From the NCBI GenBank assembly GCA_964466445.1, contig CAYXQT010000003.1:1-43101 (forward strand): a DNA stretch of 43,101 nucleotides. The letters are read 5' to 3'. Positions within the stretch are counted from its first letter, which is position 1. Each line of letters opens with the position of its first letter. A program made the position numbers and the translations under genes. This document shows, in pieces, positions 4,291 through 28,067 of this stretch. This DNA is from an uncultured Paraprevotella sp. Its GTDB lineage: Bacteria > Bacteroidota > Bacteroidia > Bacteroidales > Bacteroidaceae. Under the pieces are notes generated by a model. It was given only the letters and a program-made list of their open reading frames with translations. It was not told where the DNA came from and made no database searches.

Positions 4291-4447
4291 CACATCAATA
4301 GGTCGGCGACGGGCAAACGGCGGATTCCGCCGCCCCCGAGCGGGCCGATGGAAAGGAATGGATGAAAGCCGGCCGCGGCCGGTCTCGGATACTTGCTTAT
4401 TGAGAGAAAAGAACAGAGTATTAATGTGTTTTTTAAATTTATGTAGT

Positions 4448-7400
4448 ATGAGAAAAGAGTTTATGAACGTGGCTCTGATCGGTGCGCTTCTGGTCGCATC
4501 GACGAGCGTGATTCCGTCTTGCGACGACTACGATGACGACATCGCCAACCTGCAAGGGCAGATTGATGCGCAAAAGGGGTCGTTTGGAGAGACGGACAAG
4601 GAGTTGAAGGATGCCCTGACGCAGGTGCAGACTGACTTGACGCAGGCGCAGACTGACTTGAAGCAAGCGCAGGCTGACTTGACGCAGGCGCAGGCTGACT
4701 TGAAGCAGGCGCAGGCTGACATCGCAAGCGCAAAGGATGAGGCTTCCAAGGCCGCCGCCGAAGCCAAGGCAGAGGCCGCACAAGCCAAGCTTGATGCCGC
4801 AAACGCCGCACAAGTCGCCGCACAAGCCGCACAAGCCGCCGCAACGGCGAAGGAAGAGGCCATCAAGGAAGCCCAACGCCTCGTGGATGAATTGAAGGCT
4901 CAAATCCCCGATGTCTCCAAGTTCTTGACCGAAGCCAGTTTGGATGATTATGCCAAGCTCACTTACGTGGATGCCCAAGTCAAGGCCGTGACGGAGGGTT
5001 TGGATGCCGCTACCGGAAGGCTGACGGAAATCGAAAAAGTGATGGAAGACATCGGACTTACGCCCGAAGCCCGCGAGGCATTGAAGAGCTTGGGCGGCAT
5101 CCAGAACGTGCTGGCGCAACTGAACACCCAGCAGGAAGCCATCGACAACTTCACCAAGCAGTTGGGAGATCTGGACACGAAAGTGGACGACAACCTGAAG
5201 GCAAGCCTTGACTCCGCCGATAAGTGGGTTGAGGGCTTGCGTGCCGAATACACGAAGGTTCTGGAAAATTATGTGCAGAAAAGCGACTTGACGACCACAT
5301 TGGGCGACTATTACACCAAGAAGGAAGTGGACAGTCTGCTTGATGTCGTAAACGGGAGCATCGCCAGTCTGAGTACAGACTTACAAGGATCACTTGATAA
5401 GGTGAACACGGACTTGGGCACAAGGATTGACGATCTGAACACAGAGCTGACCGATAAGATAAACGAGGACATCAAGAGCGTCGAGGATAAGGTAGGCAAG
5501 GTTAATGCCAACCTGATTACCGTGCTGGGCAAGACCTTGCGCGGACTGGTGTTCTATCCCGAACTGTACGTGGGCGGCATCGAGTCGTTCGAGTACGGCT
5601 ACCTGTATTACGGGCATTTCAAGCTCCAGGGAAGACCGGAAGACACGATCAACTACGACGGGAAAAACAGCAAGTTCACCGTAGCGAATTCCCTTTACGT
5701 TCCTAACGGCACTGACTCCCTTACCTACAATCCTACCGACACGATTGTGTACCATCTGAACCCGTCGACCGCCTCGTTGGAAGGATGCGAGTTGAACTTC
5801 ATTTCGAGAGAAGTGGATGTGGTTAGCCGTGCCAAGGGCGACGGAACAGCCGCCAATCTTCAAATCGTGGAAGGCTTCAAGGTAGAAGACGGCAAGGTGA
5901 AAGTTCCCATGAAGGCCGACGGCCCCAAGATTCTGACCAACTATGCGGCAAAGCTGACTGACGAAGGCAACGGGTCGGCAGGCGACATCTTCGCCCTCCA
6001 AGCCAAAGTCCCGGCAGCCAACAAGGAGGAGAATGACACGGTCATCACCTCCGACTACGCCATGCTCTACGGCTCCAAGGTTATTCCTCAAGCCATAGCG
6101 TTCTCCAAGAAGAAGTTCGAGAATTTCGACTACGACGAGAGCGCGGACACGACGGGCGCGGGCATAGCATGCACCGGGAAGAATAAACTGTACCGTGAAC
6201 TGCTCAAGTGGCCCAAGAAAGCCGTGGCCAAAAAATGGGCGATTACCCTGAACTTCGACGACGAGACGGGCTTCGACCTTAAGGACATCCTCTGCATCCA
6301 CTACAAGTGGGAGACCGATACCAAGAACTACGGCGACCACCTCGCGTGGGCTTACGGCGAGGAGGCTCAGTACGGCTTGAAGTACAACTATGAGCTCGTG
6401 AAATATACGGTCGAGGGCTACACGAAAGGCGAACATGAGTACGCCACGGTGGACGCAGACGGAATCGTCAAGCCCAATAAGGTGGGCGACCGCACGACCA
6501 TAGGCCACGAACCGCTGGTTCTCGTGACCGTTCAGGACGAGAAGAAGAATGTCGTGCTCTACGGCTACGTCAAGGTGAGGATAGTCGACAACAAGAACAA
6601 GGTGATGGATCCGATTGCGAAGAAGGACACTGTGGAAGACTGCAGCGGTGACAGCGTGAAAATCGACTGGACTCCCGTTCCGGCGGAGGTTCTGGCCAAG
6701 CTGAACATGACCGACGCGGAATTCAAGGAGACGTATGAACTCGAATTGGGTGAGGACGGCTCCGCAACGCAGTGGGAACCCGCGGGCTCTCCCGTGACCG
6801 ATGCCACTCATTTCAACGGTCTTACGCCTAACCTGTACTGGGGTACAGTGAAAGAAAACAAAGACAAAGACCTGGTATGGTCGATGGACGCTTGCACACA
6901 GCAGAAGGTTTACGAGAGAGAAACCCCGGTAGCGCACTCCAAGACCATCTATGTCCGTTACAAGAGGAAAGGCGAACAGAAGGTGGATTTCGCGGTTTAC
7001 GTGCCCTTGACGCTGACCATCAGCCGCGACAAGTACGCGATTGAGTCGTTTGAAGGGTACTACGACATAAATCCCACGGTTTGGGGCTGGAATCCCGACG
7101 ACAAGATTTGTAAGAAGCCGGACGTGGAGGGCAATCCCGGCATGAACGTGGAAGTACCGGGCACGAAAGTGGATGCTTCCCCCGACACATGCGACACTTA
7201 CAGTCAGCACTTCATGGATGTCTTCATGGGCGCGAAGTTGGATAAACTTCCCGCGTATGCAGAGGGCGACACCGTCTTGTACTTCATCGGCGGTTACACC
7301 ATTCCGAAGCCGAATGGAGGAGAGTGGAAGATTGTCGTCAAGGAGAATATGGCATACAGTCAATGCACTAACAAGCAAGTACCTGCGCCGACGAACGAGG

Positions 7401-8149
7401 ATGCCCAAAGTGCGCATGAATATCCTCTTACCAAGGATGCGGGCGTGTACGTGGACACGTTAGTTTATATTGATCAGGAAGATGACAACCACCTGCTTGC
7501 TACGATTGATCCCGATACGAAGACAATCAAGTATGCCACGACCGAGGCGGCGAAAGAGTTGCTCAATGCCTACGGCACTACCGACAAGAGAGAGCCCAAG
7601 GCGTTCCTGAGAGTCGGCGTGGCGTTGACGACGGGGTGCGGTACCATCCTGCCTGTGACGGACAATTGGTTCGACGACTACATTCTCCGTCCGGTCAACG
7701 TGGTGCCCGTGGAAGGGAAGTACTTCACGGATGCTCTGGACAACGGTTCCCCTCTGAACGTGGCGGACCTCATCGACTTGAGCGACTGGCGTAATAACGG
7801 CAACTTTAGCCAGCATCTTAACTACTACCACTTCTATGGTGTTGATACCATCAAGATAGTCAACGACCCCAAGCAGATCCTGACCAACATCGATGGAGAA
7901 GACCCGTGGAAGTCGCTTGCAGAGACTGCTCCCAACACTGTGTTGGAGTACACGGAGGGAACCAACAACTTCTCTTCGCTGTCGTCAATGGCTGACCTTA
8001 CGGCGGCAATGGGTAAGATTACTTTGATGAACAACGGCACTCCTATCCTGAGTGAGTACAAGATGAGACTCCCTGTCATCGTCAAATACGGCTGGGGTAC
8101 AGTGAACGCGTTCATTGAGGTAACGGTTAAACCTAACAGGGGTTATTAA
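4448..8149 (+). CDS. Large surface lipoprotein with coiled-coil stalk (DUF4988/S-layer-like), 1233 aa
   Basis: Start MRKEFMNVALIGALLVASTSVIPSC (signal peptidase II Cys) followed by acidic DDYDDD; ~330 aa of heptad repeats, then beta-rich domains. Confidence 0.8.
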   Translation: MRKEFMNVALIGALLVASTSVIPSCDDYDDDIANLQGQIDAQKGSFGETDKELKDALTQVQTDLTQAQTDLKQAQADLTQAQADLKQAQADIASAKDEASKAAAEAKAEAAQAKLDAANAAQVAAQAAQAAATAKEEAIKEAQRLVDELKAQIPDVSKFLTEASLDDYAKLTYVDAQVKAVTEGLDAATGRLTEIEKVMEDIGLTPEAREALKSLGGIQNVLAQLNTQQEAIDNFTKQLGDLDTKVDDNLKASLDSADKWVEGLRAEYTKVLENYVQKSDLTTTLGDYYTKKEVDSLLDVVNGSIASLSTDLQGSLDKVNTDLGTRIDDLNTELTDKINEDIKSVEDKVGKVNANLITVLGKTLRGLVFYPELYVGGIESFEYGYLYYGHFKLQGRPEDTINYDGKNSKFTVANSLYVPNGTDSLTYNPTDTIVYHLNPSTASLEGCELNFISREVDVVSRAKGDGTAANLQIVEGFKVEDGKVKVPMKADGPKILTNYAAKLTDEGNGSAGDIFALQAKVPAANKEENDTVITSDYAMLYGSKVIPQAIAFSKKKFENFDYDESADTTGAGIACTGKNKLYRELLKWPKKAVAKKWAITLNFDDETGFDLKDILCIHYKWETDTKNYGDHLAWAYGEEAQYGLKYNYELVKYTVEGYTKGEHEYATVDADGIVKPNKVGDRTTIGHEPLVLVTVQDEKKNVVLYGYVKVRIVDNKNKVMDPIAKKDTVEDCSGDSVKIDWTPVPAEVLAKLNMTDAEFKETYELELGEDGSATQWEPAGSPVTDATHFNGLTPNLYWGTVKENKDKDLVWSMDACTQQKVYERETPVAHSKTIYVRYKRKGEQKVDFAVYVPLTLTISRDKYAIESFEGYYDINPTVWGWNPDDKICKKPDVEGNPGMNVEVPGTKVDASPDTCDTYSQHFMDVFMGAKLDKLPAYAEGDTVLYFIGGYTIPKPNGGEWKIVVKENMAYSQCTNKQVPAPTNEDAQSAHEYPLTKDAGVYVDTLVYIDQEDDNHLLATIDPDTKTIKYATTEAAKELLNAYGTTDKREPKAFLRVGVALTTGCGTILPVTDNWFDDYILRPVNVVPVEGKYFTDALDNGSPLNVADLIDLSDWRNNGNFSQHLNYYHFYGVDTIKIVNDPKQILTNIDGEDPWKSLAETAPNTVLEYTEGTNNFSSLSSMADLTAAMGKITLMNNGTPILSEYKMRLPVIVKYGWGTVNAFIEVTVKPNRGY
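4616..4720 (+). repeat. 5 x 21-bp in-frame tandem repeat encoding heptads
   Basis: LTQVQTD LTQAQTD LKQAQAD LTQAQAD LKQAQAD; near-identical 21-bp DNA units such as TTGACGCAGGCGCAGGCTGAC. Confidence 0.92.
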
Positions 8150-11857: not shown

Positions 11858-14800
11858 TCATCTCGTCAGCGAGAAGCGCAGGTTGAAGCCGAAATCCTGC
11901 GTGACGGTGGGGTACGCGCTCGAAGAGAGCAACGGCTTGTTGCGCTGGCGGTCGTAGTAGAGGCTCAGGGTGACGTAGCGGCTCATCGTGTAGTCCATGC
12001 TGAACGACGACTTGATGGCCTTGTTGCCGCTCGTGGCTTCCGACAGCGATGTCAGGATGTTGCGCGTGATGGCGTCCTGGTTGCGGAAGGAGAAGTCGAA
12101 GCGCAGGTTCAGGTCGTGGCTGATGGCGCGGCTGTTCGTCGTCGAGGAAGTCGTGTTGCGGTTCGCGTTGCGGTTGTTGGCGGCGTTCCCTTGCCTGCCG
12201 CTCCTTCCCCCCGGCGCTCTCCTCCTGCGTCGTCCGAAGAGGGAGGAGAACTTGAAGTCGCTGATTTTGTACCCCCATCCCACGACGAAGTCGTTGCTGC
12301 AAGCCTCGTTGATCTGCACCGCGGTCATGCTCAGGGTGAGGACGCGCGTCTTGCGGTATTCCGCCTTGAAGGTCATGTTGTTGTTGAGCGTGAGGTCCAG
12401 CCCCGCCAAAGGCGAGAAGGCCTCGTTGATGGAGACGGAGCTGATGTCGTACATGCTGCTCGGCACGATGGCGTTGTCCGTGGCGTTTTGTATGAATCCG
12501 AGGTCGCCCATGTACTCCATCCAGCTGCTGTACGTGTTGTAGGAGCCCACGGAGTAGACGCTCTTGTAGGAGTGGTTGAGGGTGACGCTCTTGAAATGGT
12601 CGCGTATCCAGGGCAGGTAGGCCAGCCCCTTGTAGGACACCGTCCAGTTGGGCAGCATGTGCGCCAAGGTAGGGAAGATGTCCAACGGGGAGTTGGCGTC
12701 CCCTCCGCCGGTGTAGGCGGCGAGGAAAGCCGGTATCATCACGTCCGACGAGTACTTGTCCACGGCGCCGTTGGCGGGGTCGAACTTCCCTTTCAGCCCG
12801 GTAGCCGCGGGATAGGTGGCGCCGGCGTACCGCGCTTCCACTCGGTCGCGGAACGTGTTGAGGTACTGTTGGAAGCGGGTGAAGGTCTTGCTGTCGTATC
12901 CGTTCCCGGCGTTGCCCCGGCTTTCGAAGGCGGACTTGATGGAGATGGTGGTCATGGTGAAGCTGCCGCTTTGCGTGGTGGGCATTCCCTCGTACATGTA
13001 CTGGATGCTCTTGTTTTTGTTGACGGTGCGGCTGGCGTTGAGGTCTATCTTCAGGTCGGGTATCGGTTCGAGGGTGGCTTTTATTTGGAGGTCTTCCATG
13101 GCGTTGGTGGTGGCGGGGGTGCTGATGCTGTCGTTGTCGAGCAGCCATCCGCGCCCGTCGGCTTTCCTGATGTAGCCCTCGCCGGTGAGTCCGAAGGCGA
13201 AGTCGAGCCCCGGCTGGAGCCCTCCTGCCGACCGTTGCCCCAGCATGTCGCCCACGTTGGGCAGGAATCCCGGTAGCGACATGGCGAACGTGTTGCGGTA
13301 GCTGAGGCTGACGTTTCGCACCATCATGAGGAAGCGCGTGGCGCCTTGCAGGTAGGGGTACCAGGGCTTCTCCCTTGCCGGTGTCTTGGCGATGACGTTG
13401 ACGCGCAGCTTCACGCTGTCCATGTTGAGGATGCGTATCTTGTTCTTGTCGAGTTTCTTGAACTTGATGGGATAGCGTCGTCCCTCCTCCGTCACGGCGG
13501 TGACGCGGATGCGCCGGCTCTTCTGGTTGTGCGCCAGCTCCACGGTCGTGTCCGGCCTCAGGGTTACTTCCCCGGCGAATCCCTTGAACTTCGGGTTCTT
13601 CACCTTGGCGTTGGCCGTCCCCTTGGCGTTGTCGGCGGTCTTGCCGCCGTCCTGTCCGTCCGCCGTGCTTCCGTCCGCCGCCGTGTTCCCGTCCTTGTCT
13701 TGTCCCTCCTCCTTTTCCTTCTCTTTCCGCGCCTTGGCTTTCTGGCGTTCGCGGTTGCTTTCGTCCTTGGCTTTCTTCATCTCCCCGGCCGAGAATTTCT
13801 TGTTGACTTCCCTCAGGAAAGGAGAGAAGTTGTACAGGTTCTCCAGGTTGAAGCGTCCGTTCACGGTGGCCGAACGCTGGTTGTTGATGGTGTTGCCGTA
13901 GGAAGAGCCGTCCTCCTGCTCCATGCCGCGCTCCCAGGAGTAGTTGGCGGTGTAGGTTCCGTCGAGCGAGATCCAGGAGAAGCAGGGTATCTTCTCGAGC
14001 GGCGCCTTGTAGGAGAGCGTGGCGTCCTGCTGGTAGTCGAGCGGCGTGCCGAAGCCCTTGATGCTGCGCCACACGGAGTCTTTCCAGGCATGGTACTGGT
14101 CGGCGTAGAAATCCTTGTTGACGGGGACGTTGGGTTCCTCGATTTCGGCGTGCGTGGCGGAGTTGAACGAGAAGTGCAGGTTTTTGGTCAAGTCCCATTT
14201 CAGGCTGAAGTCGCGGTTCCAGAGGAACTCCTTGGAGAAAGACAGAGGCAGCGACATGGGGTCTTCCAAGTTGTCGATGTCCCGTTCCTGGTATTCGTAG
14301 TAGTTGCGCAGGATGTTGGTGTTGAAGCTGATGTTCTGCGGGATGTAGTTGAAGCTCTGGTCGCGTATGATGTCCCACCATTTGCTTTTGCTCTTGATGC
14401 TCTTCTTGAACGGCTCGAACGGCTTGTAGACGGGCGAGTAGCTGTAGTTGAACGCGCCGTTCCAGTTCTTTTCGGTTTCCCATGCGGTGGTCTCTCCCGT
14501 CTTGTCGGTGACGCTGTGTGAGTAGCTGAAGGAGAAGTTGGCGGGGTCGTAGGGCATGGGGTGCTTGGGCGTGGCGATGTTGAACTTCACGTTGCTCAGG
14601 CTGAAGTTCTTGCTTGTGGTCTCCGTGGTGGTGAGGCTGCGCAGGGAGTCTTTCTCGTGTTCCGTGGCGCAGGCGTCGAGCGCGTCGTCGAGCAGCATGT
14701 CCGTGTCGAGGGGGTTGAACTTGGGCTTGACTACTTCCTTGCTGTAAGAGTAGTAGACGGGGGCGGTGAAGTGCAGCTTTTCGGGCAGGAGCTTGCCGAG

Positions 14801-20365: not shown

Positions 20366-20477
20366 TGGAAGCGGCAGGCTTGCGTCAAGAACTCCCGTGC
20401 CCTGTCCGGGGGACGCATAAATAGCGGATAGTTACCGGGCTGGAAGCGGCAAGCCTGCGTCAAGAACTCCCGTGCCC
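20366..20477. repeat. Two 37-bp direct repeats with a 38-bp spacer, overlapping the dam stop codon
   Basis: TGGAAGCGGCA(G/A)GC(T/C)TGCGTCAAGAACTCCCGTGCCC at 20366-402 and 20441-477 (35/37 identical). Confidence 0.9.
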
Positions 20478-21389
20478 GTAAGCACTGGCGGTGTTTGAAA
20501 TCATGATTTCGGAGACGGCACCGCGCCGGTCTCCCCTTGAGTTTATCGCCCTCGCGGCAGACACGCGCCTGATGCGGAACATCCCGTAAAGGCGGTCGAA
20601 GAAGTCGTCGTCGGCATCCACGTTCCGCGGGTCGCTGTTGCTCGCCACGAACAAGGAGCCGGACATGGCAATCTTCCCGCAGAAGTCGCGGAGCCTTGTC
20701 TGCTCCGCGTCGTCGAAGCCGCCTTTCGAGTAAGACGTGAACGCCGCCGTCTCCGTCAGCGGGCGGTACGGAGGGTCGATGTAATACAGCACGCCGTCGC
20801 CCGCGTACACGCCCGTTTCCGAGAAGTCGCCGCAAAGGATTTCCACATTCCGGAGGATGGCGGAGTCCGCCCTTAGGGTCTCCTCGTCGCAAATCACCGG
20901 GTTCGCGTACCGCCCGTGCGGGACATTGAACGCCCCCTTGGAGTTCACGCGGTATAATCCGTTGAAGCAAGTGCGGTTCAGGAAGATGAACAGCGCGGCC
21001 GTCTCCACGTCCGGGATGCCTCCCGCGTTGAAACGTTCGCGCCGCGAGATGAAATATTTCTTTCTCCCGTCGCCGTCGAGCGGAAGATATTCGGACTGAA
21101 GGCGGCGCAGTCCGGCAATCAGCCCCTCGACCTCGGACTTTACCACGCGGTACGTGCAGATGAGTTCCGCGTTGATGTCGTTGATTACGGCTCTTGCCAT
21201 GTTGGGATACTCCTGCAAGATCCAGAACAGGACGGCTCCGCCTCCTACGAACGGCTCCACATACGTCATATCGTCCCGTCGCGACAAGTCGGCGGGCAAA
21301 GACTTTCTTATGTCGCATAGGAGCCGGGCCTTTCCGCCCGCCCACTTGACGAACGGCCTTGCCGGGGATGTGCCTTGAGTCTTTTTCAT
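20460..21389 (-). CDS. dam: Dam/DpnM-type (D12 class) N6-adenine DNA methyltransferase, apparently orphan
   Basis: KWAGGK, EPFVGGGAV (motif I), NDIN, FLNRTCFNGLYRVNSKGAFNVP, DPPY (motif IV). Confidence 0.92.
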   Translation of the reverse strand: MKKTQGTSPARPFVKWAGGKARLLCDIRKSLPADLSRRDDMTYVEPFVGGGAVLFWILQEYPNMARAVINDINAELICTYRVVKSEVEGLIAGLRRLQSEYLPLDGDGRKKYFISRRERFNAGGIPDVETAALFIFLNRTCFNGLYRVNSKGAFNVPHGRYANPVICDEETLRADSAILRNVEILCGDFSETGVYAGDGVLYYIDPPYRPLTETAAFTSYSKGGFDDAEQTRLRDFCGKIAMSGSLFVASNSDPRNVDADDDFFDRLYGMFRIRRVSAARAINSRGDRRGAVSEIMISNTASAYGHGSS

Positions 21390-25647: not shown

Positions 25648-25675
25648 TTTGGGGCAAGTGAATTTCGTACCTTTG
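25648..25675 (+). promoter_or_regulatory. Promoter for the glycosylase-like/deiminase pair
   Basis: TTTG (25648-51) and TACCTTTG (25668-75), 29 bp upstream of ATG 25705. Confidence 0.55.
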
Positions 25676-25704: not shown

Positions 25705-26406
25705 ATGGAAAATCAGAAGATGATAATCAGATTACAAGGCGAAGCAAGTGACTTTATTAGAAATCGTTGTATCCTGATAGGCGGTGTTACAGTTTACCCC
25801 AAGGAGATAGAAGTGTATTATTTTAAGCAGGGAGAGTTCGAGGACAATTCTGTGCATCGGAACGATCTTCAGAAGAATAACAAGAACCATCTGTATGTCC
25901 ACAGGAGAGGGACGGCATACAGGGGCGGCAATCACGCCGGGGCGGATTTGGTGATAAGCGATAAAGACGATTTCTTCTATTCTTATTTGTTAAGGTCGGT
26001 TGCGTTTGGGGATGAAGAACTTGTTTCCGGTCCTCATCGGGTGCTTGTAGAATTGTGCAAACGCGTTTGCACGCCGGGAAAGACGGAAGTTGAGATGTAC
26101 GAAGAACTGGAAAACGTGCAATGTCAGATCGCCCCTAACGGCATGGAGGGCATAAGAGTGGGCTTTTCCGAGCGCATCAACTTAAGCGAAAGCGTAAATC
26201 CGGAATACAAAGAAGCCGAATTAAGAGCCGTTGCCATCGACCAGTTCTTTAGAAAGGCCAAATATCACAAAAAGGAGAAAATGATAACAGGCTTGATAAA
26301 AAAGGAGTTGGAGCAAAAGATCATCGGCAAGGAAGAAGCAGAGGAAATAGTAAAAGACAAGCTCGGCTACGTACCCGATGCCATAAAGTCATTGCTGGCT
26401 TCATGA
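25705..26406 (+). CDS. Divergent AAG/MPG-family (3-methyladenine-type) DNA glycosylase-like protein
   Basis: Ordered motifs EIEVY, DNSVH, LYVH, YLLRSV, ELVSGP, ERINL, ELRA parallel AAG ETEAY, DEAAH, LYVY, VLLRAL, ELCSGP, ARVGV, PLRF. Confidence 0.7.
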   Translation: MENQKMIIRLQGEASDFIRNRCILIGGVTVYPKEIEVYYFKQGEFEDNSVHRNDLQKNNKNHLYVHRRGTAYRGGNHAGADLVISDKDDFFYSYLLRSVAFGDEELVSGPHRVLVELCKRVCTPGKTEVEMYEELENVQCQIAPNGMEGIRVGFSERINLSESVNPEYKEAELRAVAIDQFFRKAKYHKKEKMITGLIKKELEQKIIGKEEAEEIVKDKLGYVPDAIKSLLAS

Positions 26407-27263
26407 CGAATCCCGTAATCTACACGTCCGAATGCCTGTCCACGGACAGAGCCACTGCCTCCGTTTCCGCATCACTTCATGCCGCTCTCGACAAGCTGAA
26501 AGTCGGGCATCGTGTACTTGCAAACGCCAATGACTATTGGATTCGCGACTTCATGCCCGTGTGCCTGTCTGCAGACGGGACTTATGCAAGATATGAATAT
26601 CGGCCGGACTATCTATGGGACGATGAGGACAAACGGCGGTACATCACCCGTCAAAGTGACGCTTGCGACGGGCTGGATTTGTTTGCTCCCAACGATATGA
26701 ACATCATCTTCGACGGCGGGAATTATGTCCGTTGCGGTAACAAGGTGGTGATGACAGATAAGGTTCTGATGGAAAATCCGCGATGGCATTTGGACGAACT
26801 TTTCCGACATCTTACCGACACTTTGTGTGCCGACATCGTCCTCTTGCCTTGGGACATGGAGGACGAATATGGACATTCGGACGGCATGCTCACGTATCTT
26901 GGCGAGGAGCGTGTATTGCTCAACAATTATCGTCAGGAGATACGGGGAAGGGAGGACAAGGATTACTACTTACGGCTGACAAAAATACTCGAAGCACATT
27001 TTGACATAGTTGAACTGTCATACGACTGCGAGTTAGACCCCGACTCTTGGTGTTATCTCAACTACTTGGAGCTTCCGGAGGCGATTCTTCTCCCGTGCTT
27101 GTCGGAGCAAGTCGATTGCGACAATGATATGGCGGCAAAAGAGACATTCACCCGTCTGTTCCCACGGAAAGAAATAGTGCAGATTTACGCCAAGCCCTTG
27201 ATTCGCAGGGGTGGCGCGTTGCACTGCGCGACGTGGGAATATTATCACAGGGATTGTTCGTAA
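26403..27263 (+). CDS. Agmatine deiminase/PPAD-family (pentein) enzyme, short form
   Basis: WIRDFMP, DGGN, GHSDG, YLNY, GGALHCATW; ATGA overlap with the upstream stop. Confidence 0.9.
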   Translation: MTNPVIYTSECLSTDRATASVSASLHAALDKLKVGHRVLANANDYWIRDFMPVCLSADGTYARYEYRPDYLWDDEDKRRYITRQSDACDGLDLFAPNDMNIIFDGGNYVRCGNKVVMTDKVLMENPRWHLDELFRHLTDTLCADIVLLPWDMEDEYGHSDGMLTYLGEERVLLNNYRQEIRGREDKDYYLRLTKILEAHFDIVELSYDCELDPDSWCYLNYLELPEAILLPCLSEQVDCDNDMAAKETFTRLFPRKEIVQIYAKPLIRRGGALHCATWEYYHRDCS

Positions 27264-27387: not shown

Positions 27388-28067
27388 ATAGATTCAAGAT
27401 GGAAATGCAACCTCCTCCCTCCGCCCTTGAAGCATAACGGAAAGGGCGGGGGAGGAGAAGAAAGCGGCAAGGGTCATCCGGCAATACAGAAAATAAAGGG
27501 GAAGAGCGTCTGCCGCCCCGAAAATCAATTGCCCGTGAGCAGAGATACGAAAGCTGTCCGGGGTTAAAGGAAGGCAGAAGCCAGAAAACCATTGCGCGGC
27601 AGATAAATGTTCACTCCTCGACCGCAGGCAGGGAAAGACAAGGCACAACCCGACCCGTTCGGGACGTTACGTCGGCGTATGGCACGGGAAAGCGCGGACA
27701 TCCGCAAGGAACGCATTCATGGCCATGAGGTTGATTCTCCCTTGCCGGAAGAACGTGCCGACCGTCACCACGGACAACGGAAGCGGGTCCGCATGCCATA
27801 AGAAGATAGCAAAAGCCCCCGGTACGACCGTCCATTCTGTAGGTTCATGCGTCTCATGGCAGAAAGGTGTCATCGAGAATGGGAACAAGTTCATCCGGCA
27901 ATACCTCCCGAAAGGGACCGGCCTCAGGGTGCTGACGGACGGGATTATTAAAGGAGTAGGATACATGATAAACAAGAGGCCAAGGGAGAAACTGAACTTC
28001 TCTATTCCTATAGATAAGGAGTCTTTCAACTCGATTTCGTAATATTGCACTTGCCAGTTGACTCTGC
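27388..28067 (+). mobile_element. Internally deleted IS30-family element (~680 bp)
   Basis: Imperfect terminal IRs ATAGATTCAAGATGGAAATGCAA (27388-410) / TTGCACTTGCCAGTTGACTCTGC (28045-67) enclosing transposase fragments. Confidence 0.8.
27719..28042 (+). pseudogene. IS30-family transposase C-terminal fragment
   Basis: TTDNGS, SWQKGVIENGNKFIRQYLPKG, INKRPREKLNF; conserved DNGxEF and YFADPY motifs degraded. Confidence 0.88.

What the first reader, a model, noticed from the sequence alone, without database searches (positions are those of the whole stretch)
25705..27263. Candidate new system: AAG/MPG-like DNA glycosylase translationally coupled to an agmatine-deiminase-like enzyme
Seen: two genes with an ATGA stop/start overlap (26403-06), their own promoter, visibly lower GC than the genes to the left, and an adjacent decayed IS30, lying between core genes. 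No polyamine-pathway partner (N-carbamoylputrescine amidase, carbamoyltransferase, antiporter) is nearby. Established: AAG/MPG enzymes excise modified purines; penteins hydrolyse or transfer amidino/guanidino groups; some phages carry amidine- or amine-bearing bases (deoxyarchaeosine in phage 9g, putrescinylthymine in phiW-14); DNA glycosylases such as Brig1 act in anti-phage defence. Inference: a two-component module that edits and/or excises hypermodified bases, e.g. amidine-to-amide conversion plus base excision. Alternatives are self-protection against a guanidino-bearing genotoxin, or an effector-regulator pair controlled by Arg deimination. I know of no described system with this pairing.
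Basis: partly seen in the sequence, partly recalled or inferred. Interest (0 to 1): 0.82.

Follow-up and report, generated by a model that had tools for sequence, protein, structure and literature searches.

The report
DNA glycosylase paired with guanidine-removing enzyme
In gut and environmental Bacteroidia, a gene for a predicted DNA base-cutting enzyme repeatedly sits beside, or is fused to, a gene for a predicted guanidine-removing enzyme, and the pair likely works as an undescribed anti-phage module that would first strip a charged chemical disguise from viral DNA and then cut out the exposed base.

Summary
ORF A (25705-26406) has the AAG/MPG glycosylase fold (Z 12.2), keeps the catalytic Glu, and has Asp where AAG's anti-guanine gate Asn169 lies. 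ORF B (26403-27263) is a short agmatine-deiminase-like pentein with an intact Asp-His-Asp-Cys set. The pairing recurs: 29 of 36 close A loci carry B, fusions exist, one in this same genome, and 5 of 6 held-out B loci have a glycosylase neighbour. New here: B swaps partners among unrelated DNA-attacking folds (59 places: 33 AAG-like, 5 hypoxanthine-glycosylase-like, 8 HNH-like), never has the putrescine-pathway partner, and its nearest kin lie in phage cassettes with a second pentein and a pyruvoyl decarboxylase. Best reading (0.45): an unmask-then-excise defence like BapA-Brig3, on a guanidino-bearing phage base. Main rival (0.2): B destroys a free phage-made agmatine-type shield. No activity was tested; the substrate is unknown.

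The parts
25705..26406 (+). ORF A, 233 aa: divergent AAG/MPG-fold DNA glycosylase (predicted), plus a C-terminal three-helix extension
   Evidence: AF2 pLDDT 97; Foldseek top 9 hits all human AAG, best E 2e-5; VIA Z 12.2, rmsd 3.0, 154 aligned; 21 of 126 family members hit PF02245 at E<=0.1, best 1.2e-5
25810..25812 (+). E36, equivalent of AAG catalytic E125
   Evidence: invariant in 126 of 126; register through a canonical MPG
25945..25947 (+). D81, at the place of AAG N169, the gate against guanine
   Evidence: D in 125 of 129; aligns to N86 of canonical MPG L140, which aligns to human N169
26403..26406 (+). ATGA stop/start overlap (translational coupling inferred)
   Evidence: sequence
26403..27263 (+). 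ORF B, 286 aa: short PAD_porph pentein of a distinct subfamily; D49, H158, D160, C275 catalytic set; D154 amine-binding position
   Evidence: PF04371 E 4e-21; fold matches agmatine deiminases, TM 0.7; four residues invariant in 36 of 36; tree
27225..27227 (+). C275, predicted nucleophile
   Evidence: aligns to the agmatine deiminase Cys; invariant
25648..25675 (+). possible Bacteroidetes-type promoter (TTTG, 16 nt, TAnnTTTG)
   Evidence: sequence; consensus recalled; spacing short; untested
27719..28042 (+). IS30 transposase remnant, adjacent; no shown link to the pair
   Evidence: NF033563 64 bits, cut-off 80; related copies elsewhere in the genome

Best explanation
The two genes form a recurrent, sometimes fused pair that likely acts as an unmask-then-excise anti-phage module: B would hydrolyse a positively charged guanidino (agmatine-like) group attached to a base of invading phage DNA into a neutral ureido group plus ammonia, and A would then flip out and excise the altered purine, leaving abasic sites that would stall phage replication. 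Shown: folds, conserved catalytic residues, pairing, fusions, partner swapping, lack of the putrescine partner. Inferred: both activities, the order of steps, the defence role. Most likely base for A: a guanine-like purine, because Asp replaces the Asn that excludes guanine in AAG; hypoxanthine is the alternative, because both glycosylase families that partner B come from hypoxanthine-excising families. A alone would cover phages whose base needs no unmasking, which fits the A-only genomes.
For: Pairing: 29 of 36 close A loci hold B; in 401 order genomes 20 of 30 with A have B adjacent, against 34 of 371 others with B; A-B fusions in G000:C54, L037, L103 and an HNH-B fusion in L115. Partner swapping: of 59 B places, 33 AAG-like, 5 hypoxanthine-glycosylase-like (TIGR04274, 37-49 bits, cut-off 80), 8 HNH-like (PF01844 weak), 3 an unplaced family, 10 other; partner labels are scattered on the B tree, 20 changes for AAG, at least 13 forced. 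Held-out: 4 of 6 new B loci outside the order have AAG-like and 1 a hypoxanthine-glycosylase-like gene directly adjacent. Control: 0 of 20 lower-scoring deiminase loci have A; 14 of 19 canonical ones have the CN-hydrolase partner, which no B locus has except an unrelated divergent gene at G000:C54. Defence context: PADLOC hits within 2.2 kb in 10 of 36 B loci against 1 of 19 controls, one generic hit on each side (one-sided p 0.045); B lies inside type I restriction loci (L118, L121, L165, L168, L169), next to Nmad2/Nmad3 (L103), on plasmids and viral contigs. Phage link: B's nearest relatives are in phage cassettes with a second pentein and a PS-decarboxylase-like gene (8 of 10 loci; tree); those two genes occur in six Bacteroides thetaiotaomicron phages, in DAC19 among replication and nucleotide genes, and in 39 Campylobacter phage records. 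Precedent: BapA-Brig3. N169S AAG excises undamaged guanine (PMC5363859 passages).
Against: No phage base with an alkyl-guanidino group turned up in my searches. The phage cassette usually sits by virion genes, and 27 scanned ORFs of a complete 50-kb carrier phage showed no nucleotide-modification family; two earlier unchecked notes read it as arginine-to-amine metabolism. B's pocket is compatible with free agmatine. A lacks B in 10 of 30 genomes. Defence enrichment is modest, kin are not independent, and the 36 loci were mostly those without a strong match to my A profile; this window's own flanks hold no defence gene, and neither A nor B hits PADLOC. The B profile was built from A-adjacent genes, so the 20 of 30 figure is partly circular. 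Many A-like members have a very short hairpin where AAG has its intercalating Tyr162 (20 of 67 motif-matched), so base flipping is not assured for them. This genome has no canonical MPG by tblastn, so A could be doing repair.
Confidence: 0.45

Rival explanations
1. Still defence, but B acts on a free metabolite: phages make an agmatine-type cation with their pentein-decarboxylase cassette to coat DNA or inhibit host DNA-attacking enzymes; B would destroy it so that the partner glycosylase, HNH nuclease or type I enzyme can reach the DNA. A's target could be hypoxanthine, as in deoxyinosine genomes.
For: B keeps the agmatine pocket (W46, D49, D/E154 in 69 of 75); its sister clade sits in a phage cassette best read as amine metabolism; this reading also explains B inside type I restriction loci, where no base excision is needed. 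Fletcherviruses replace dG with dI (PMC13091555 passages) and 39 Campylobacter phage records carry both cassette genes.
Against: Fusion to glycosylases and to HNH suggests acting on the same DNA site rather than on a diffusible pool (inference); many B genomes also hold a canonical deiminase; the GMP-reductase-like gene beside the DAC19 cassette found no Campylobacter phage match, so the deoxyinosine link to Bacteroides phages is unsupported.
Confidence: 0.2
2. DNA repair or detoxification: A would remove damaged or adducted purines from the host's own DNA and B would break down a guanidino-bearing lesion, excised product or genotoxin.
For: AAG and family-6 UDG are repair families for deaminated purines (established; TIGR04274 name); this genome lacks a canonical MPG by tblastn; this locus has no defence neighbours.
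Against: Patchy spread (A not found with the single-protein query in 29 of 29 same-genus genomes), HNH and type I restriction partners, plasmid and prophage carriage, and constant partner exchange fit conflict systems better than repair.
Confidence: 0.13
3. Effector-regulator pair: A is a toxic glycosylase that would attack normal guanine, and B keeps it off by deiminating one of its arginines, or marks host DNA as self.
For: The Asn169 gate is replaced; A has conserved arginines R97 and R157; tight coupling.
Against: A occurs without B-subfamily genes in 10 of 30 genomes, all at least 93% complete; B pairs with unrelated folds; it is closer to agmatine deiminases than to peptidyl-arginine deiminases and keeps the amine-binding acid.
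Confidence: 0.08
4. B is an ordinary agmatine deiminase carried as cargo at variable sites; the pairing reflects shared descent of one mobile cassette and no joint function.
For: Annotation as agmatine deiminase family; this genome has no canonical copy by tblastn; 10 of 59 B places have none of the recurrent partners.
Against: Several fusions, both gene orders, three or four unrelated partner folds that all act on DNA, and no amidase partner.
Confidence: 0.07

Closest known systems
BapA-Brig3 (bioRxiv 10.64898/2026.02.25.707755; abstract, introduction and passages read)
   Same: Overlapping two-gene operon of a base-modifying hydrolase and a DNA glycosylase; the hydrolase trims a phage hypermodification so the glycosylase can excise the base. 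This is what the pair most likely works like.
   Different: Brig3 is UDG-like and BapA an ASCH-type glucose hydrolase acting on glucosyl-5hmC. Here the glycosylase has the AAG fold and the helper is a Cys-His-Asp pentein; the stem 'deimin' does not occur in that text. No homology claimed.
Defence glycosylases Brig1, Brig2, Dag1/Dag2 (bioRxiv 10.1101/2025.10.29.685425; first sixth and passages read)
   Same: Divergent glycosylases, sporadic, in mobile contexts, excising modified phage bases; Dag1 targets modified guanines including deoxyarchaeosine.
   Different: HhH and UDG folds, single genes; AAG, MPG, alkyladenine and deiminase occur 0 times in that text.
AAG/MPG alkylpurine-DNA glycosylase (PF02245; PDB 1ewn)
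   Same: Fold; E125, Y127, D132, H136, R182, G217-P218, R261 equivalents kept.
   Different: 18% identity; below the Pfam cut-off; Asn169 replaced by Asp; the Tyr162 hairpin is longer here and nearly absent in other members; extra C-terminal helices; sporadic.
Agmatine deiminase AguA (PF04371, TIGR03380)
   Same: Pentein fold, catalytic set, amine-binding acid.
   Different: About 280 aa against about 345, lacks the N-terminal segment, own motifs (D104/N107, G161, W278), separate side of the tree (SH-aLRT 99), far below the equivalog cut-off (41 against 382 bits), no amidase neighbour.
Phage pentein + PS-decarboxylase-like cassette (undescribed in the searches; noted in earlier scan findings)
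   Same: Some versions carry a B-like gene, the nearest kin of B found.
   Different: Viral, no glycosylase neighbour; function unknown; only 7 of 35 loci include the B-like gene.

Membership tests
AAG/MPG superfamily (ORF A) | AAG fold | tested here: met
   Z 12.2, rmsd 3.0, 154 aligned, next unrelated 5.7; Foldseek E 2e-5
AAG/MPG superfamily (ORF A) | catalytic Glu125 and Tyr127/His136/Arg182 pocket | tested here: met
   E36, Y38, H51, R97
canonical MPG repair family PF02245 (ORF A) | score above the family cut-off and Asn169 specificity gate | tested here: not met
   no hit for A; relatives best E 1.2e-5; Asp in place of Asn
AAG/MPG superfamily (ORF A) | intercalating Tyr162 hairpin | tested here: inconclusive
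   hairpin present and longer, Y72 invariant in the 23 close relatives, but not aligned to Tyr162 by the profile
AAG/MPG superfamily (ORF A) | base excision activity | not testable with these tools
   needs an assay
PAD_porph penteins PF04371 (ORF B) | family score, fold and Asp-His-Asp-Cys set | tested here: met
   75.9 bits, cut-off 25
agmatine deiminase AguA equivalog (ORF B) | TIGR03380 cut-off, full length, amidase or carbamoyltransferase partner | tested here: not met
   40.6 against 381.8 bits; separate clade; no CN-hydrolase partner
agmatine deiminase AguA equivalog (ORF B) | hydrolyses free agmatine | not testable with these tools
   pocket residues are compatible
Brig/Dag defence glycosylases | UDG or HhH fold | tested here: not met
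   the model matches AAG instead
Brig/Dag defence glycosylases | sporadic, near defence or mobile genes | tested here: met
   modest, and not at this locus
helper + glycosylase defence (BapA-Brig3 logic) | helper converts a phage base into the glycosylase's substrate and widens protection | not testable with these tools
   gene arrangement fits; no activity data
catalogued defence systems (PADLOC-DB 2.0) | match to a system model | tested here: not met
   0 families for A and B at E<=1

The most novel reading that the evidence does not exclude
Phages, including cultured Bacteroides phages DAC16-23 and SJC03 and crAss-like viruses, use a pentein plus pyruvoyl-decarboxylase cassette to put an undiscovered guanidino (agmatine-type) group on their DNA, and Bacteroidia have turned a relative of the cassette's own deiminase into a universal de-cloaking enzyme that plugs into AAG-fold and UDG-fold glycosylases, HNH nucleases and type I restriction enzymes. 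That would be a new DNA base, the first pentein acting on DNA, and the first AAG-fold immune effector.
Probability: 0.22. Interest if true: 0.92.

Novelty: new variant of a known kind. Interest (0 to 1): 0.76.

Why it matters
If true, it adds a third glycosylase fold (AAG) and a new helper chemistry (guanidine or amidine hydrolysis) to bacterial immunity, in the dominant gut phylum. The helper's partner swapping predicts an unrecognised cationic disguise on phage DNA and names cultured phages and a laboratory host in which to look for it, so the question is directly testable. A natural AAG family with Asp at the guanine gate is also of interest for glycosylase base editors, where that position is engineered. 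It would also correct a recurring misannotation: these genes are labelled putrescine biosynthesis.

Tried and rejected
Sequence searches of A itself against Pfam, NCBIfam, PADLOC and PDB found nothing. The complex prediction for A with B gave no answer, which is no evidence either way. Profile-profile comparison of the close A family with two canonical MPGs failed (probability 1.3%, shallow profiles); the register came from an HMM alignment instead. My guess that the third small partner family (L112, L121, L138) is UDG-like was not supported; it is counted as unplaced. The large genes beside the phage cassette are not DNA polymerases, as I first guessed. The idea that cassette-bearing phages share a GMP-reductase route to deoxyinosine failed: no Campylobacter phage among 41 matches. 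Low GC as evidence of transfer was set aside. An empty-site test failed because the flanks are not syntenic in relatives, and no joint skipping the pair was listed in four runs. No RNA holder was listed. Twelve listed strain differences in the two ORFs (5 silent, 7 not, none catalytic) say nothing on selection. The close A family was not found in viral contigs or phage records, though divergent A-like genes were, beside B. The Atlas gave unnamed clusters and a lead-only MPG hit at 0.87 for a homologue. Earlier-finding look-ups by sequence were blank, as was one by words. The careful tree did not finish; the quick tree has no bootstrap and no real root, so the direction of transfer between phage and host is not determined.

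Full report
Observation. Two ORFs of 233 aa (A, 25705-26406) and 286 aa (B, 26403-27263) overlap at ATGA. They lie between a DUF4369/thioredoxin gene and an IS30 remnant followed by rpsU and xerC in a Bacteroidales-type genome (order inferred from the T9SS gene and the named relatives). The stretch is present in four gut-metagenome assemblies of one study, one possibly the source. The promoter is plausible only; GC is weak evidence, since core genes to the right are as low. The flanks are not neighbours in 16 same-genus stretches, so no clean insertion site can be drawn.

ORF A. It hits no family directly. Relatives: 24 close proteins and 280 cluster representatives. A model from 126 aligned sequences has pLDDT 97 and matches human AAG: the top nine Foldseek rows and Z 12.2 over 154 residues. 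21 of 126 members hit PF02245 weakly, and the family profile finds canonical MPGs back (E 4e-8 in a six-sequence search). Through a canonical MPG aligned to human AAG (numbering by the 79-residue offset there), E36, Y38, D47, H51, R97, G109-P110 and R157 correspond to E125, Y127, D132, H136, R182, G217-P218 and R261. D81 corresponds to N169; it is Asp in 125 of 129 and in 67 of 67 motif-matched sequences out of 89. E125 is catalytic, Y162 drives flipping and N169S raises excision of undamaged guanine (PMC5363859, passages). So A is a predicted glycosylase with an altered guanine gate, not a canonical MPG.

ORF B. PF04371 at E 4e-21, pentein fold closest to agmatine deiminases, D49/H158/D160/C275 invariant in 36 of 36. 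A profile of B scores genomes in two groups, above about 120 bits and below 106. On a quick tree of 105 rows the 19 canonical enzymes fall on one side (SH-aLRT 99) and B with phage relatives on the other. B lacks the N-terminal segment but keeps the acid four residues before the catalytic His in 69 of 75; that this residue binds agmatine's amine is recalled, not from a call.

Pairing. 29 of 36 close A loci hold B, in either order, with one fusion. This genome has a second, fused A-like/B gene on contig C54. In 401 genomes of the order, 30 have A at E<1e-15; 20 have B adjacent and 10 have no B-subfamily gene. B occurs in 54 genomes. Of 59 B places (split genes counted once; fragments in G253 and one in G150 dropped), 33 have an AAG-like neighbour within two genes or fused, 5 a protein like DNA-deoxyinosine glycosylase (below cut-off; PDB 2l3f), 8 an HNH-like protein, one of them fused, 3 an unplaced family and 10 none of these. 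The B profile was trained on A-adjacent genes, so I tested it on a phylum-wide sample: 6 of 400 further genomes had B, with AAG-like adjacent in 4 and the deoxyinosine-glycosylase-like gene in 1. As control I picked 20 of the lower-scoring places: none had A, and 14 of the 19 canonical ones had the CN-hydrolase partner (one secreted form set aside).

Context. PADLOC at E<=1e-25 within 2.2 kb: 10 of 36 B loci (type I RM, PARIS AriAB, Uzume, MzaE, PD-Lambda-1, candidate systems; one generic ABC match) against 1 of 19 controls (a generic exonuclease). These 36 were the loci fetched with longer flanks, mostly those without a strong A match; neighbours of the close A+B loci were only clustered, not scanned. 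B also sits directly after hsdR in three viral-collection loci, beside Nmad2/Nmad3, and on Flammeovirga and Prevotella plasmids. This window shows no defence neighbour.

Phage relatives. Of 19 viral-collection hits, six form a separate clade. These genes sit with a second pentein (arginine-dihydrolase/DDAH-like, below cut-offs) and a PS-decarboxylase-like gene in 8 of 10 loci; the second pentein has the decarboxylase in 29 of 35 loci and the B-like gene in 7 of 35. One carrier is crAss-like (PF23898). The two genes occur in 6 Bacteroides phages and 39 Campylobacter phage records. In DAC19 they lie among primase, dUTPase, dCTP-deaminase-like, GMP-reductase-like and polymerase genes; in F336 the pentein lies between helicase and clamp; in most uncultured phages they follow virion genes. 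Fletcherviruses have deoxyinosine genomes (PMC13091555, passages). Against a DNA-modification role: 27 scanned ORFs of a complete carrier phage gave no nucleotide-modification family, and two earlier AI notes read the cassette as arginine-to-amine metabolism. Phage polyamine enzymes are well known (PMC9992855, passages).

Mechanism. A deiminase that loses its metabolic partner and keeps acquiring unrelated DNA-attacking partners most simply works on something on or around their common target. I commit to unmask-then-excise on a guanidino-bearing phage base (0.45), with removal of a free agmatine-type shield as the main rival (0.2); together with minor variants, defence stands at about 0.7. Repair (0.13), arginine-deimination control (0.08) and cargo (0.07) follow. 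Every enzymatic step is inferred.

Comparison and novelty. The logic matches BapA-Brig3 (abstract, introduction, passages); the folds do not. The Dag/Brig2 paper does not mention AAG or deiminases. Searches for this pairing listed no description; I saw listings and abstract starts only for papers not named above, the library lacks most subscription papers, one search's family name was poorly searchable, and supplements of large defence screens, which I did not read, may list these families. Verdict: real, recurrent, apparently undescribed; a new variant of helper-plus-glycosylase defence; interest 0.76.

Noticed in passing
G000:C54:5083-6495 (L006), minus strand: Second copy in the same genome: a 470-aa fusion of a divergent AAG-like domain (short hairpin) with a B domain, between a rubrerythrin-like gene and a gene that looks like NAD synthetase (both by eye; the latter hits the CN-hydrolase profile).
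   Followed up: yes
L175-L180, L193-L237; L238:9956-11794 (Bacteroides phage DAC19): Widespread phage cassette of a pentein and a PS-decarboxylase-like gene, sometimes with a B-like deiminase; after the capsid gene in T4-like contigs, in the replication module of DAC phages, present in Fletcherviruses. Function unknown.
   Followed up: partly
L238:13895-14869 and 13387-13884: DAC19 carries GMP-reductase/IMPDH-like and dCTP-deaminase-like genes next to the cassette; its DNA composition is worth measuring.
   Followed up: partly
L021:3456-5414, L024:2934-4637, L028:7754-9499, L107:1817-3118, L109:1520-2923, L125:4730-5860: Sel1-like repeat domains (by eye) fused to B or encoded right after it in many rumen and gut loci; could be a sensor or scaffold.
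   Followed up: no
L122:2743-4134: AAG-like domain fused to a GNAT acetyltransferase, next to a type ISP restriction-modification gene: a second base-modifier plus glycosylase arrangement.
   Followed up: no
L103:2929-6085: A-B fusion in one run with Nmad3 and Nmad2 (nucleotide-modification-associated domains).
   Followed up: no
L112:1660-2859, L121:2409-3062, L138:2-478: Unplaced protein family beside B, once fused to the HNH-like domain, once inside a type I restriction locus.
   Followed up: partly
L062:1-450, L070:141-1367, L041:1150-2583: Two A-like genes in tandem or near each other; the L070 one lacks several catalytic motifs; L041 is a Mycoplasmataceae bin with an HNH-like neighbour and no B.
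   Followed up: no
L125-L127, L089 (114-aa gene), L038:4653, L183:7560: A small unknown domain sits between A and B or is fused to B's N-terminus in several loci.
   Followed up: no
window 27401-27460: G+C-rich inverted repeat downstream of B with about 85% copies on other contigs; possible terminator or dispersed repeat. Not folded.
   Followed up: no
window 20460-21389 (-): Dam-family adenine methyltransferase (TIGR00571 above cut-off) between pnp and ruvA, with no nuclease seen beside it.
   Followed up: no
window 4358-8149 (+): 1263-aa probable lipoprotein with a long coiled-coil region and no specific family match, upstream of an OmpA-family gene.
   Followed up: no
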